Below, piece after piece: positions 7,061 to 60,441 of a stretch of DNA of 64,000 bases. Position numbers and translations under genes: made by a program. The DNA lies in the NCBI GenBank assembly GCA_964016885.1, contig OZ024762.1, positions 27,714,001 to 27,778,000 on the forward strand. The letters are read 5' to 3'. Below the pieces are notes generated by a model. That model worked only from the letters and a program-made list of their open reading frames with translations. It searched no databases and had not been told where the DNA came from. Position 1 is the stretch's first letter, and each line of letters begins with the position of its first letter. Source of the stretch: Eledone cirrhosa. Taxonomy: Eukaryota.

Positions 7061-7269
7061 CCATATACATATTGCCATATACATTCCATATACATATTGC
7101 CATATACAAAAACAATTTAACGGACAGTTAGATTTATTTCTACAGTTACATTTATCAAAATTCAAGTTACTAGGAGCCGTATTATTAAATTGGATATTGC
7201 TGGGGTTGTTAATAGTATTCTGGTTACAACCCCAGCAATATCCAATTTAATAATACGGCTCCTAGTAAC

Positions 7270-7692
7270 TTGAATTTTGATAAATGTAACTGTAGAAATA
7301 AATCTAACTGTCCGTTAAATAACAATTGTTTAGCTAAAAATATAGTATATAATTGTAATGTAAAAACTAATTTAAATTCATTTAATTATATAGGTTCTAC
7401 TTCCACAGACTTTAAATCTCGTTTTAATAACCATAAATGCTCTTTTACGAATATAAATAAAAAATATTCAACTTCTCTATCTAGATTACTATGGGACCTA
7501 AAATCAAAGAACATTAACTATTCTTTACTTTGGAATATTATTTCCAAAGCTCCTCCATTCAATTCTTCTTCTGAAAATTGTGCTCTTTGTATAGAGGAAA
7601 TATTCTTTATATTAAAAAGCAAAAATTCTGTAAATTTAAGGAACAATCTTTTCAAATTAAATTCAACGTTTAAATATAAATTTAAAATGTAA
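7270..7692 (+). pseudogene. GIY-YIG endonuclease C-terminal fragment of PLE family A
   Basis: CNCRNKSNCPLNNNCLAKNIVYNC...YIGSTSTDFKSRFNNH...CALCIEE. Confidence 0.85.
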
Positions 7693-8279
7693 TATATAAC
7701 TCATCTTATTAAACCTATCGATAAATCATTAGATTCCTTCATACGACTGCCTAAAACTCTCTTAAATGAAATATTTTTTCCTTAAAAATTTTCCTTGAAA
7801 ATTCTTCTAGATAAACATACTGAAAGCTTTTTAAAAAAAAGGTATTTTTGAAAATTACTTTTTGAAAATTTCTCTTATGGGTATAAAGAAATTAAGATAA
7901 ACTTACTGAAAGTTTCTAAAAAAAAGTTTTTTTTGTTAATTCCTCTGATGGATATAAAAAATTATAATTCATATTTTATACTGTGTTTTTTTCTATATAT
8001 TCTTATATATATTTTAAAATTATATTGCTTAAAAATTATAATTCCTTTTTAAAATTATATAATTATATTTTTTTAAATTGTAATTCCTTTTAAAATTATA
8101 ATCCTTTTTAAAATTATAACTCATATTTTATTTTATATTATGTATTTTGTATTTATATATATATGTATATATGTATATATATGTGTGTATATGTATGTAT
8201 ATATATATATATATGTGTGTATATATGTGTATGTCTATATATATGTATGTATGCGTGTATGTATGTCTGTATATGTATT

Positions 8280-8833
8280 GTCGGGTCGTTGGCGACTAAA
8301 CTGGCAACCCCACCAAGGTTTCTTGGTGAGGAGGGTGACTTTGGACATCCTGCAGGACTAAAAACAAAACCTGTCAAAGGGCAAAGGAGCTCTTAAGAGT
8401 CAATGGCCATCCAAAATCACCGGGAGAGATGACCCCTTAGCCTTTGTCAAGGCAGAATTCTAGGAGAAGGAAAACTCTGATATAACACCTGCAACCCTGA
8501 TGGTATCCAATGATGTTGACTTGTTCTTCTTTTTGGTAAATATCATCTTGGTTAAGAGAGTGGGACTGGCTTTGTGCAGTGCCTTTGCTCACTATAAAAG
8601 CTTCACAGCACAGGCATTGCTTTATATCTGGAGATCTCTCTGCCCTTATCATCTCATGGTACCATGGGCCCAGCACTATGTGTCAATAATTGTCACAAGT
8701 GTAGTGTTTGTACCAGAGTTTTCAAGTCACTGGCTGAGACTAAAAAGTCACACTCGTTCAGCGCATCGGTAGGGGTTCTCCTACATGGATATAAAGTAGT
8801 GGCCGTACTCGAAAACGAGTTGGCAGCCACCAT
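8280..8833 (+). mobile_element. Internally deleted RTE-type element (5' UTR joined to C-terminal C2H2 finger and 3' end)
   Basis: 5' part similar to reverse complement of 63885-64000; 3' part reads CSVCTRVFKSLA-(frameshift)-LKSHTRSAH then a terminal hairpin gtggc..ctcg-aaaa-cgag..gccac. Confidence 0.55.
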
Positions 8834-9643
8834 ATGTATGTGTATATATATCGAAATGTATAATTTGAATACATTCTATGAATGAACTCATATAAAAGGT
8901 TTTTTACGGTTTATGCTTTAGATATATTCTTATGAAAAACTTTAAACATTAAGACGTTATAGTAAACAAACTTATATTTTAACAGTCACAACTGTATAAC
9001 ATGCGGATTTATGAAATATATAAAATTTATAAAATTATAACTTACTATAAAATAATATATGGTTTTTTTTATAATCTTAACGTTTTTTATCATCTTAACC
9101 TTTATAACATTTAATCCTTAGAGCTATCTAAATTTCAAATAAATCACTTGATTTCCTTCACGCTGTATTGCTATTACGAAGAAGAGATTTTTCTTCGGTA
9201 AAATCTCTGAATTTCCATGGGTTTAGAAACATTCCTATATTTTAAGCATAAAAAAAATATTTTATTTTTATTATTTCTTATTATTTTTTATTGATAATTA
9301 ATTTGAAAATTAATGATTAATGGTTGGTTGAAGATTAATAATAAATTTATATAAGGTTATGTAATAATAATATATATTTTAATAATATTTTTTTAATAAT
9401 ATATATATATATATATATATATATATATATATATATATATATATATATATATTTATTAAAATAACAGATTAAAGTTTAAGCAAAGAATCGCTGCTTAATA
9501 TATATGTATATATTCTTTTAATAATATATAGATCTCAATTTTTAATTTATAGATCTCAATAATTTAATTGATTAATTAAATATTTAATCAAATTTAAACA
9601 TTAGATAAAATCTCCGGTTATTATTATTTATTTATTTATCATA

Positions 9644-9830
9644 GGGCAGTGGATTGGCAGTATCGGTAGAGGGTCGGACGTCATGCTTTCCAGCATAGTT
9701 ACGTCCCTTTACGATCTGAGTTCAAATCCCGCCGAGGTTCACTTTGCCTTTCATCCTTACGGGTCGATAAAATAAAGTACCAGTAATGCACTGGGTATTT
9801 GCTGACCTTGTGCCTAAAGTAGAAACAATT
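9644..9830 (+). mobile_element. tRNA-derived SINE with Meta-like central domain
   Basis: A-box-like TGGCAGTATCGG, B-box GAGTTCAAATCCC, central TTTGCCTTTCATCCTTACGGGTCGATAAAATAAAGTACCAG; same family as the copies at 60642-62180. Confidence 0.8.
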
Positions 9831-57705: not shown

Positions 57706-57740
57706 ATTATAATATATAAAATATATATATATAAAATATA

Positions 57741-58635
57741 ATATGTTGAGAAGGTAACACACCAGAGAGAGATATATAGTGCGTTATCAATAATACAGGG
57801 AAAAAACCACCAGTGTATGGAATCTATAACCTATGAAAGGCAGACTATAGACACGATAATTAAAAATATAAATTAAAGCGTAAATAAATACCTCTATAAC
57901 TAGATAACACACGTACAAATCCAAAGATATGTTTCACCAAAAAATTTGTTGAAAGAAATGGTCTAGTCTCGGTTCATCAGCGTGTGTAAGGCCATACATT
58001 TCAGACAACACTAAGAGAATTTTACAATTGACTGTCCAGCTACACGTGGGAGAGAGAAGTCACAGCGTGTTTAAGGGCAGTGAACCAGTGGCCTCTGAGA
58101 GACGAACTGCTAGAAAGGGCAGCCCAAAGCCACTCAGAGAAGTGTGCTCAACCAAACAGAGATAGGAAAGGCTGTTATTAGGAGCGAAATATCACGATAA
58201 ATTAACGGAGGCATAGGCCGTCGTTATTCCCTGTAAATAATGTGCTCAAAGGGGAAGAGATCCTGAGCCCTTTAAAATATATGTTGAGAAGGTAACACAC
58301 CAGAGAGAGATATATAGTGCGTTATCAATAATACAGGGAAAAAACCACCAGTGTATGGAATCTATAACCTATGAAAGGCAGACTATAGACACGATAATTA
58401 AAAATATAAATTAATTTATATTTTTAATTATCGTGTCTATAGTCTGCCTTTCATAGGTTATAGATTCCATACACTGGTGGTTTTTTCCCTGTATTATTGA
58501 TAACGCACTATATATCTCTCTCTGGTGTGTTACCTTCTCAACATATTATATTTTAAAGGGCTCAGGATCTCTTCCCCTTTGAGCACATTATTTACAGGGA
58601 ATAACGACGGCCTATGCCTCCGTTAATTTATCGGT
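57741..58635. mobile_element. Retrozyme-like element with about 538-bp unit: about 1.25 units minus plus an inverted arm 58414-58635
   Basis: 57741-57875 repeated at 58279-58413; fold-back at 58413; hammerhead on minus strand. Confidence 0.75.
57907..57987 (-). ncRNA. Type I hammerhead with full stem III
   Basis: Minus strand: acacacg-CTGATGA-accgaga..ttttggt-GAAA-catatc-tttg-gatttg-TA-cgtgtgt. Confidence 0.85.
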
Positions 58636-58762
58636 ATATATAAAATATATATATATATATAAACGTTTGAATATGTATAATAAAGCCAAAACAATGCAGG
58701 TATGGACATAGAAAAAAGAATGCAATTGCAAAAGATATTGTTGACAATTCGTCTTTTACCTT

Positions 58763-58826
58763 AGATTTATTTAAATGTCCTTAATTTTCGAGATAATATC
58801 TCTTCTTCAGAGGGAAATAAAGGTCT
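58763..58826 (-). ncRNA. Minimal hammerhead in the 3' pLTR of PLE family E
   Basis: Minus strand: tttatttccct-CTGAAGA-a-gagata-t-tatctc-GAAA-at-TA-agga..aaataaa. Confidence 0.6.
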
Positions 58827-59194
58827 CAAACCAGCGTTCTAAATATCTTGCCAAGCCATGCTGACAGGAAATAGTATAGAATATCTGTTCTATCTCTAAT
58901 GTCAAAGAGTTAAAATTAGGTGGATAAAGAGTAGTCTCCCTTTAAAAGGGGTTTGTTTAGGGTTTTTTTTTATATATACATGCCTGTTTAAGTGTGTGGG
59001 AGAATGCATGAAGGTGTAAGTATGTGTGTGTGTGTGTGTGTGTGAGTGTGAGAAGATAAGTCTATTCGTAAATGTGGGGGATAGGTGTTATCTGGTGTTA
59101 GAACTGGTTTTGTGTGTGTATGTGTGAGAGAGAATAAGTGGAGGTGTAAGCGTATGTGTGTGTAGGGTGTGTAAATATGAGGCTAGAAGCCCTA

Positions 59195-60441
59195 TCAGGT
59201 TATAAATTGGGTGTTGAGTTCTAGTCTATTATTGATTGGTGGTAGTGTTTTATCTATAATTAGTGCTTCCTTAATTCTAAGATTGCCGAGGTTTCTTTCC
59301 TTAGTTTCTATCCTAACTGTTATGGTTGTGTCGGTGTTTTTGCATTTAACTAGGTGTTTCTTAAATGAGGAAGCGTTAGTATTGAGGTGTTCTTTTATTC
59401 TTATGTGGAGTGGTCTGGTGGTGCTACCTACGTAGAAGTTGTTGCATTTGTCACACTCTAGTCTGTATACGACGTAAGCCTGGTGGCATAGGTCTGTGTC
59501 GTTGATGGGGCAGTTGGCTAGTCTGCAGCAGTTGTCATGTCTGGTGGAGTGTCTTTTGGTTAGCTGTCCGCGTAGAGAAGGACCTGAGTGGGCCAGTTGG
59601 ATATCTAGTCCCTCTCGTCTGATGGCTCTGCGGATGGCTGTTGTTGTTTCTTCACTGAAGTGTGGGAGCTTCAGGAAGCAAGTGTTAGTGCCTCGGGTGT
59701 GGTGTCCTCTGTTCTTTCTGGCACGGTTTGTGGTGGATGTCGTGTATCCGTTCAGTTTGAGTACTTCCAGGAAATGTGTGGTGTGTGTGTCTCGGTCTCT
59801 AGCGTCGGTGCATTTGTTCCGGATACGTGCCAGTTCGTTCCTTATGTATCCGAACTTGGCACCGAGTGGGAGGGCCGATCTGAAATGTACGAACAGGTCC
59901 CTGCTGGCGGCTTTTTTATAGAACCAGGTGTGGATGTTGCCTTCCTCTGTTACCCTGAGTTGGAAGTCCAGTAAGGATAGGGATCCGCGGTCATCGGGGT
60001 GTTCCATGCTGAACTTTATTCTGGCGTCCATGCTGGAGAATGTTGTGTATATTTTATCTGCCTCACGGGATGATGTAAGGATGAGTATGTCATCTACATA
60101 TCGGGTGAAGAAGGCATGGGAATGGCAGGTGTTGAGGGCTCGGCATTCTAGCTGGTTCATGTAGGTGATGGCCAGCAGGCCCGATAGGCTGGATCCCATG
60201 GGTAATCCTGTTGTCTGTCTGTATGTGTGGTGGTGGAAGGTGAAGTACGTGTTGTCTACTGTGAAGGACAAAAGCTGGTGTATGTCCGTCGGGTGGAGGC
60301 CGTAGCAGTGGTTGTCCTCTGCGACCACGCAGTCCATCAATAAATCGACAGCTGGATGAGCGGGGACTGTAGTGTAGAGCGAGACAACGTCGAGGCTAAA
60401 AGCGTATTTATTTAGTTTAAGTTGTTCTGGCTGGAGTTGGT
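59195..60441 (-). CDS. PLE family E RT + GIY-YIG, partial (5' end at assembly gap; 3' UTR to about 58660)
   Basis: SLDVVSLYT upstream of the called ORF, YRQTTGLPMGS, RYVDD, LSLLD, VVYRLECDKCNNFYVGSTTRPLHIRIKEH. Confidence 0.9.

What the first reader, a model, noticed from the sequence alone, without database searches (positions are those of the whole stretch)
7115..60441. A PLE/hammerhead 'retrozyme' ecosystem: autonomous PLEs plus several unrelated ribozyme-bearing non-coding passengers in (TA)n
Seen: at least 5 coding PLE families (A-E) and at least 3 ORF-less tandem units (310, 467 and about 538 bp) plus a mini element at 47 kb. They share no obvious sequence but all carry a type I hammerhead, and most lie in (TA)n with divergent arms. 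Known: PLE pLTRs contain hammerheads, and metazoan non-LTR retrozymes yield small circular RNAs and are thought to use PLE RT. Inference: the intact 819-aa RT/GIY-YIG mobilises self-cleaved, probably circular, RNAs in trans, with the hammerhead-defined monomer as the recognition unit. The specific families and this density look undescribed to me, though I cannot verify that.
Basis: partly seen in the sequence, partly recalled or inferred. Interest (0 to 1): 0.85.

Follow-up and report, generated by a model that had tools for sequence, protein, structure and literature searches.

The report
Ribozyme repeats carry Penelope insertion footprint
Six protein-coding Penelope-like jumping genes and three small non-coding repeats with hammerhead-ribozyme motifs sit in TA repeats with the same two-armed insertion footprint, so the small repeats are likely copied by a Penelope-type enzyme from one, probably circular, RNA molecule per insertion.

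Summary
Observation largely confirmed: 32 hammerhead (HHR) motifs against 0.2 in shuffles; coding Penelope-like elements (PLEs; A, B, C Hydra-type, D, E Neptune-like) and three ORF-less units (310, 467, 541 bp), all dispersed genome-wide families. Corrections: the 47-kb 'mini element' is a doubly truncated copy of a sixth autonomous PLE (H); the density is about 3 times background; nothing singles out the 819-aa protein as the driver. Main result: insertions are two divergent arms in (TA)n whose outer ends are fixed 21-303 nt downstream of the HHR cut, one arm at site 1 and the other at site 2 (A 20 of 20; U310 22 of 22; U467 20 of 23; U541 16 of 18). Private variants are fixed in all units of both arms, as expected from one monomer template. 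A fourth ORF-less family (G) has two such fixed ends but no canonical HHR. Best reading: a PLE enzyme primes both ends of a break at two internal RNA sites and rolls round one circle; the HHR likely makes the circle but is not the recognition unit. The retrozyme-PLE link is a published hypothesis; I did not find this footprint evidence in print. No RNA data.

The parts
7115..10370 (+). PLE C copy 1 (Hydra-type, decayed): 103-bp fold-back head, ORF end 7216-7692, long AT-rich 3' region with later insertions, HHR 10186-10234, ends at site 2 in (TA)n
10530..18966 (.). PLE C copy 2: minus arm 10530-18327 (split by B), plus arm 18328-18966; HHRs 10702 (-) and 18779 (+); both arms end at site 2, an exception to the rule
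12048..16215 (.). PLE B (Hydra-type, frameshifted, 5' truncated): minus arm 12048-13020 ends at +21, plus arm 13019-16215 ends at +98; U3-A8 HHR from 16032
21023..21292 (+). Family G partial copy: ~634-bp ORF-less tandem unit, ends at its site 2; only a CUGAUGA half-core
21593..23098 (.). U467 retrozyme insertion: minus arm 1.27 units ends at +303, plus arm 1.96 units ends at +234; HHRs 21926 (-), 22367, 22834
29600..45363 (.). PLE A (Hydra-type, 4199-bp unit): minus arm 1.36 units ends at +47, plus arm 2.39 units ends at +211; HHRs (U4C core) 29685, 33884 (-), 36716, 40915, 45114 (+)
37008..39464 (+). 819-aa RT plus C-terminal GIY-YIG-type ORF of A (identical copies 41207-43663 + and 31136-33592 -)
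45624..45972 (.). U467 stub: two short arms (+303 and +228), no HHR
46260..46705 (.). C-related two-armed stub; HHRs 46358 (-) and 46518 (+); ends at site 1 and site 2
46965..47350 (.). 'Mini element': two-armed stub of autonomous Hydra-type family H; HHR 47159-47213; tail 47255-47350
49791..51190 (.). PLE D (Neptune-like, 4423-bp unit): minus arm with GIY-YIG end and ORF start, plus arm; HHRs 50050 (-), 50995 (+)
51480..55712 (.). U310 retrozyme insertion: minus arm 5.0 units ends at +165, plus arm 8.6 units ends at about +130-139; 14 HHRs
55851..56215 (-). Family G partial copy, ends at its site 1
57291..57720 (.). D-related two-armed stub; HHR 57592
57732..58633 (.). U541 retrozyme insertion: minus arm 1.26 units ends at +182, plus arm 0.41 unit ends at +260; HHR 57980-57914 (-) with a 7-bp helix III
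58660..60441 (-). PLE E (Neptune/Nematis-like), RT and GIY-YIG; cut by an N gap at 60442; HHR 58810; ends at +120

Best explanation
Coding Penelope-like elements and the three non-coding hammerhead repeats all insert in (TA)n as two divergent arms ending at two fixed internal sites, most likely because a PLE enzyme cuts both DNA strands, primes reverse transcription from both broken ends at those two RNA sites, and copies one probably circular RNA molecule round and round. Shown: divergent arms; fixed outer ends downstream of the HHR cut; one arm per site; random inner ends, often joined by a short overlap or a few extra bases; 12-15-bp target duplications where the target is not pure TA; shared private variants across arms and units; conserved HHR cores. 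Inferred: tandem transcripts are cut by the HHR (as a dimer where helix III is a short palindrome) and ligated to circles; the protein recognises the region around and 3' of the two start sites, not the HHR; the two cDNAs are joined head to head by end joining. Not determined: which PLE drives which passenger, and whether two RT subunits act together.
For: One arm per site: A 20 of 20 (+47/+211); U310 22 of 22 (+139/+165); U467 20 of 23 (+228-234/+303; 3 with an arm ending elsewhere); U541 16 of 18 (+178/+266; 2 elsewhere); H 11 of 13. From the listed U467 end junctions on contig C1, 33 of 35 divergent pairs are mixed, p=2e-8. B, C, D and E show two sites as well. Differences per base across arms against between loci: U310 0.0019/0.0096, U467 0.0012/0.030, U541 0.009/0.022, A 0.0035/0.022. 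Locus-private variants are fixed in every unit of both arms (e.g. 18 of 18 in L022, 19-20 of 19-20 in L030+31); homogeneous arms reach 20 units. In 6 of 74 insertions neither arm contains the other. 8 of 19 A insertions outside the window repeat the last 7-9 template bases at site 1, 0 of 19 at site 2, as expected of priming there. TSDs of 12, 15 and 12 bp in 3 of 5 non-TA targets examined. In arrays picked by non-HHR patterns the HHR core stays intact, with a compensatory helix II change in U467. PAc cleaves and extends both strands and starts at two internal sites (PMC11167929).
Against: No RNA evidence of any kind. Two long U467 arms are mosaic: L042+43 has a period-3 variant in one arm and the 30.7-unit arm of L205+ has many partly shared variants, so later local expansion or multimeric templates also occur. 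Same-site pairs exist (H 2 of 13, U467 2 of 35, the window's C copy 2). Family G forms short tandems without a canonical HHR and is heterogeneous within insertions (0.05); only 4 of 7 two-armed G loci clearly follow the rule. In the A nearest-neighbour test the partner arm was nearest or tied in only 23 of 40. For PAc in vitro, unprocessed RNA was the main substrate, and no reads ended at the HHR site. No sequence link between passengers and any of six PLEs. In the 2026 preprint only 1 of 9 retrozyme dimers cleaved in vitro.
Confidence: 0.6

Rival explanations
1. Same PLE-driven priming at two internal sites, but the template is a long linear read-through transcript of a parent array; the HHR is a passenger or acts at another step, and circles are not needed.
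For: HHR mutants did not change PAc insertion in vitro. Mosaic arms in L042+43 and L205+. G makes tandems with no canonical HHR.
Against: Locus-private variants fixed in all units of both arms need a one-monomer bottleneck. Arrays copied from linear transcripts could not outgrow the parent. HHR cores are conserved with a compensatory change.
Confidence: 0.22
2. The inverted arm is a fold-back (self-primed) copy of the first arm, as proposed for PLEs by Arkhipova et al. 2013; the two sites are then one start site and one resolution nick.
For: Overlap of 2 or more bases at the inner junction in 33 of 74 insertions; several junctions sit at the same phase in both arms; the window's C copy 1 starts with a 103-bp fold-back; PMC3846280 passages.
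Against: In 6 of 74 insertions each arm holds sequence the other lacks; the site-1 arm is the longer one in 27 of 74; the stutter at A site 1 marks it as a priming site.
Confidence: 0.1
3. The short units are satellites: a pLTR-derived monomer was amplified locally by unequal crossing-over, the scenario discussed by Li et al. 2026.
For: Mosaic long arms. In Xenopus 24 of 57 retrozyme families match known TEs, nearly all PLE termini.
Against: Dispersed arrays with fixed ends, inverted arms and TSDs; at least 1577 U467 site-2/TA junctions genome-wide; no pLTR homology found here.
Confidence: 0.05
4. A LINE-type RT (fragments lie in the window) mobilises the short units like SINEs.
For: RVT_1 ORF fragments at 27133-28515 and 983-1426.
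Against: The passengers match the PLE footprint of two internal sites and head-to-head arms, and have no LINE-like 3' tail.
Confidence: 0.03

Closest known systems
Metazoan non-LTR retrozymes (Cervera & de la Pena 2020, PMC7229834; Li, Clavereau & Pollet 2026, 10.64898/2026.07.22.740005)
   Same: ORF-less tandem units of a few hundred bases, one type I HHR each, GC 34-39%, co-occurring with PLEs; circRNA template and PLE driver already proposed.
   Different: In the text I read the link rests on co-occurrence and pLTR homology. Here no pLTR homology is detectable, but the arrays carry the PLE insertion footprint. U467 and U541 are above the 170-400 nt range of the 2020 abstract, though within the 51-972 bp of the preprint. 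Circles are not shown here.
Hydra clade of C-terminal EN+ PLEs (Craig et al. 2021, PMC8557442)
   Same: A has RWR, DKT, CxCX5C, CxxC and CxH; H has all but the first (RWI); (TA)n targets; HHR present; 'tail' at one end.
   Different: Units are 3.7-4.4 kb rather than under 3 kb; tails are 77-164 nt rather than 30-40; copy numbers run to 15,000; A's core is U4C.
PAc (Poseidon, Anolis) internal initiation (Frangieh et al. 2024, PMC11167929)
   Same: Two internal start sites downstream of the HHR, the interval being the tail; AT-rich target; both strands cut and extended.
   Different: They report no strand difference in start site and call the tail optional. Here the two sites are used nearly always one per arm within an insertion, and non-coding passengers obey the same rule.
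Adineta EN+ PLEs and pLTR-driven trans mobilisation (Arkhipova et al. 2013, PMC3846280)
   Same: Head-to-head inverted pLTR, tail on one side, TSDs of about 8-10 bp, mobilisation in trans.
   Different: Their cargo carried the element's own pLTR and they proposed self-priming; these passengers share no detectable pLTR sequence, and some arm pairs cannot be copies of each other.

Membership tests
Non-LTR retrozyme (U310, U467, U541) | Short tandem units each with a type I HHR | tested here: met
Non-LTR retrozyme (U310, U467, U541) | No protein-coding capacity; not a stub of a coding element | tested here: met
   Longest frames 59-87 aa; no hit to a Hydra profile or to D, E, H proteins; no arm continues into a PLE ORF in the arrays mapped. 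A rare master element elsewhere in the genome is not excluded.
Non-LTR retrozyme (U310, U467, U541) | Dispersed, recently mobile | tested here: met
   14,848 (start-site pattern) and 2,729 (HHR pattern), 5,039 and 225 exact hits
Non-LTR retrozyme (U310, U467, U541) | Self-cleavage and circular monomer RNAs | not testable with these tools
   No RNA holder listed; only indirect support from homogeneity and core conservation
Non-LTR retrozyme (47-kb element) | Independent ORF-less unit | tested here: not met
   End piece of family H, 3.7-3.9-kb units with 775-821-aa ORFs
Non-LTR retrozyme (family G) | Type I HHR in each unit | tested here: not met
   CUGAUGA only; GAAA within 120 nt downstream in 2 of 44 copies; no ribozyme family in Rfam
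Hydra PLE (A) | RWK-like, DKT, CxCX5C linker, CxxC and CxH around E and N, no CCHH | tested here: met
   RWR38, DKT123, C678-C686, CNLC776, CQH804 against the list; absence of CCHH read from the sequence
Hydra PLE (A) | Telomerase-like RT with C-terminal GIY-YIG | tested here: met
   Model pLDDT 88, best fold match TERT; YRDD354; GIY-YIG motif 697-716; Pfam silent on A itself, weak on relatives and on C
Hydra PLE (A) | (TA)n insertion and HHR | tested here: met
   core is a U4C variant whose activity is untested
Hydra PLE (A) | Placement in the Hydra clade on an RT tree | not tested
   No named reference sequences at hand; Repbase and Dfam not available
Neptune/Nematis PLE (D, E) | CX2-5CxxC linker and CCHH in the EN domain | tested here: inconclusive
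   D has CIDKKCITC and DKS; E has a degenerate linker; Pfam RVT_1 and GIY-YIG on E; no tree

The most novel reading that the evidence does not exclude
PLE integration is a symmetric twin-primed reaction: one RNP cuts both strands of (TA)n, and two RT active sites start at two fixed sites of one circular RNA and roll round it. This single step would explain the tandem, the inverted arm and the one-sided tail of PLEs, with the 4.2-kb coding element also passing through a circle. Unrelated small RNAs, with or without a hammerhead, parasitise the enzyme by mimicking only the two-site start region. Retrozyme arrays would then be direct genomic records of rolling-circle reverse transcription.
Probability: 0.45. 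Interest if true: 0.82.

Novelty: new variant of a known kind. Interest (0 to 1): 0.62.

Why it matters
How PLEs make their tandem, inverted and tailed insertions, and whether they mobilise animal retrozymes, are both stated as open in the papers read. This genome gives mapped start sites for six PLE families and four non-coding families, very young open ORFs (A RT copies differ by 0-8 of 660 nt) and 310-541-nt candidate substrates. That turns both questions into bench assays with nucleotide-level predictions. It also moves attention from the hammerhead to the start-site region as the likely recognition element. The families themselves are new members of known classes; the added value is the footprint rule.

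Tried and rejected
Rfam at gathering score: nothing. DNA search of the own genome with U310 returned nothing because common words are skipped; exact patterns were used instead. Sequencing runs: no RNA holder listed. Contigs of four runs of unknown kind laid on U467 showed a 497-nt wrap-around contig in X4 and X6, which cannot tell a circle from tandem DNA; not used. Homodimer prediction for A residues 1-484: no answer. PDB sequence search with the Hydra profile: 0 hits. A CTCC...GTTGAR motif 3' of site 2 in A, H, C, U467 and partly U541 looked like a driver signature; dropped because U310 lacks it and the 421-bp relative of U467 does not keep it. The idea that diverged relatives keep the start region better than the HHR: only a weak trend in 2 pairwise alignments; the 14,848 against 2,729 count for U310 is explained by common neutral HHR variants. 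G as a type II or III hammerhead: no GAAA in register; hairpin covariation rests on 1 of 30 copies. The palindrome at 29264-29370 has CTGAAGA and GAAA but fails the descriptor. The left neighbour of a U541 arm in L061 was tested as a chimeric arm: 1 exact hit, uninformative. No RT tree was built.

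
Full report
Setting. The window lies at G000:C23:27714001-27778000 in a 3.0-Gb AT-rich animal genome. I did not determine the species; one of the ten closest protein relatives of A that I looked up carries an octopod name.

Observation. A type I hammerhead descriptor finds 32 motifs in the window against 0.2 in shuffles. They fall into C (3), a C-related stub (2), B (1), U467 (3), A (5), H (1), D (2), U310 (14) and U541 (1); D' and E cores came from looser scans. 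Most have the short palindromic helix III that Cervera and de la Pena describe for dimer-acting PLE hammerheads; B's U3-A8 covariation and the extra base after A9 in D and E are also described there (passages). Exact patterns give genome-wide counts: U310 2,729 by its HHR and 14,848 by its start region, U467 5,039, U541 225, A 1,829, C 2,853, D 8,102, E 644, H 14,967. Twenty evenly spaced 10-kb stretches hold 14 motifs (1-2 in shuffles), about 12 insertions; the window holds 12 HHR-bearing insertions in 64 kb. That is about 3-fold, with 2.4-fold more (TA)n. The whole genome is rich in these elements and the window is a mild hot spot.

Coding elements. A is a 4199-bp unit with an 819-aa ORF; the 150 best-scored genomic matches to its RT are 98-100% identical. 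Pfam misses it, but its model (pLDDT 88) is closest to TERT and it has the Hydra motifs listed by Craig et al. (section 11). B and C are decayed relatives of A. C's HHR region lies colinear with its ORF in genomic copies, and the window's second C copy is split by B. The 47-kb element is the two-armed end stub of family H, whose longer copies carry 775-821-aa ORFs 39% identical to A. D has a 4423-bp unit and a 1329-aa ORF with a Neptune-like linker. At least A, H and D are therefore candidate drivers.

Passengers. U310, U467 and U541 have no long frame, no hit to PLE proteins and no nucleotide similarity beyond chance to A, B, C, D, E or H (best z 2.8 of 28 comparisons). In the arrays mapped, arms consist of unit sequence from the inner junction to the TA run. 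Diverged relatives of about 314 and 421 bp with their own hammerheads turned up in flanks. A fourth family, G (about 634 bp, 4,816 hits), lies twice in the window. It is tandem, shows two fixed 3' ends and has only a CUGAUGA half-core; Rfam finds no ribozyme in it.

The footprint. Counting from the HHR cut, arms end at one of two fixed places: A +47/+211, B +21/+98, C +48/+138, H +45/+132, D +157/+216, E +120/+165, U310 +139/+165, U467 +228-234/+303, U541 +178/+266 (B read). Within a two-armed insertion one arm uses each site: A 20 of 20, U310 22 of 22, U467 20 of 23, U541 16 of 18, H 11 of 13. The U467 and U541 misses have one arm ending elsewhere; the H misses use site 2 twice. Several loci scored as one-armed show a stub of the other arm and were left out of these counts. 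Among the first listed U467 end junctions on contig C1, 33 of 35 divergent pairs are mixed (p 2e-8; this list overlaps the fetched loci). Inner ends are scattered. Of 74 insertions tabulated (a subset with clean junctions), 33 overlap by 2 or more bases and 22 have extra bases. Three of five non-TA targets show 12-15-bp duplications. At A's site 1, 8 of 19 insertions repeat the last template bases one to three times; none does at site 2.

One template per insertion. Units differ far less across the two arms than between loci (U310 0.0019 against 0.0096; U467 0.0012 against 0.030; U541 0.009 against 0.022; A 0.0035 against 0.022). Variants private to a locus are fixed in all its units on both arms. 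In arrays chosen by non-HHR patterns the catalytic core is intact; the common changes fall at N7, loop 2, the first helix II base, H17 and a compensatory helix II pair. Against this, two long U467 arms are mosaic, G insertions are heterogeneous, and for A the partner arm was nearest or tied in only 23 of 40 comparisons, many arms being short.

Mechanism. Both arms read as first-strand cDNA running inward from the two sides of the target. The simplest account is a staggered double cut in (TA)n, priming of each 3' end at one of two internal RNA sites, rolling synthesis on one circular monomer, and end joining of the two cDNA ends. Fold-back copying cannot explain the 6 of 74 insertions in which each arm holds sequence the other lacks. 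It may still occur, as at 7115-7320. The hammerhead likely supplies the circle, but the ends are not at its cut and G has the two ends without it, so the recognition element is more likely the start region. The double cut and the two start sites are shown in vitro for another PLE (PMC11167929, parts 1-2 of 4), where the HHR was dispensable; circle, dimer and driver are inference.

Relation to print. The inverted arm and one-sided tail are known for PLEs (PMC8557442 passages; PMC3846280 passages). Circular templates for PLEs and retrozymes, and PLEs as drivers, are proposed in PMC4209133 (passages), PMC7229834 (passages and Discussion), PMC7761336 (passages) and the July 2026 preprint (parts 1-3 of 5), whose main text has no 'tail' or 'initiation'. 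Seven searches listed no paper whose title or abstract opening reports this footprint for retrozymes or the one-arm-per-site rule. Supplements, Repbase, Dfam and subscription papers were not seen and may bear on this. Earlier notes of this scan report PLE-type marks on non-coding tandem units in other genomes; they are unchecked leads.

Verdict. Real; a new variant of known kinds; interest 0.62.

Noticed in passing
window 21023-21292 and 55851-56215; L221-L250: Family G: ~634-bp pyrimidine-rich ORF-less tandem unit, 4,816 hits, PLE-type ends, only a CUGAUGA half-core behind nested hairpins; may use another processing motif or none.
   Followed up: partly
L069, L072, L079, L082, L083, L084, L086, L087 at A site 1: One to three extra copies of the last 7-9 template bases at the target junction, a telomerase-like stutter (comparison recalled), in 8 of 19 insertions.
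   Followed up: partly
L067:1950-6200 and L044:2880-3330: Further retrozyme families of about 421 and 314 bp, distant relatives of U467 and U310, with their own hammerheads.
   Followed up: partly
flanks of fetched loci: Many more distinct hammerhead families, including another U3-A8 type; the genome may hold on the order of 10^5 motifs (extrapolated).
   Followed up: no
L205+L206 (G000:C1:5738094-5752747): A 30.7-unit U467 arm with mosaic variants, suggesting later satellite-like expansion of one insertion.
   Followed up: partly
L061:2030-2300: Left of a U541 arm lies a minus-strand piece of another element with a CUGAUGA half-core, joined without a TA run; possible template switch.
   Followed up: partly
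window 27133-29182 (-), 47288-48118 (+), 2-1426, 4939-5477: LINE-type RT fragments (RVT_1, DUF6451; RTE-like by recall) ending in (CAT)n or (GAT)n next to TA runs.
   Followed up: no
window 5685-7127 (-): PIF1 helicase fragments, probably a Helitron piece.
   Followed up: no
window 62327-63505 (-): Dystroglycan-like exon (Pfam DAG1), a host gene.
   Followed up: no
window 4266-4632 (+): Another decayed Hydra-type endonuclease fragment outside the finding's bounds.
   Followed up: no
window 9642-9832 and 60642-62179: SINE-like repeat family, with an 827-bp palindrome at 60642-61468 beside the N gap (60442-60641).
   Followed up: no
window 29264-29370: Small palindrome with CTGAAGA and GAAA but no hammerhead topology; shares a TTCTAATT repeat with U310.
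   Followed up: partly
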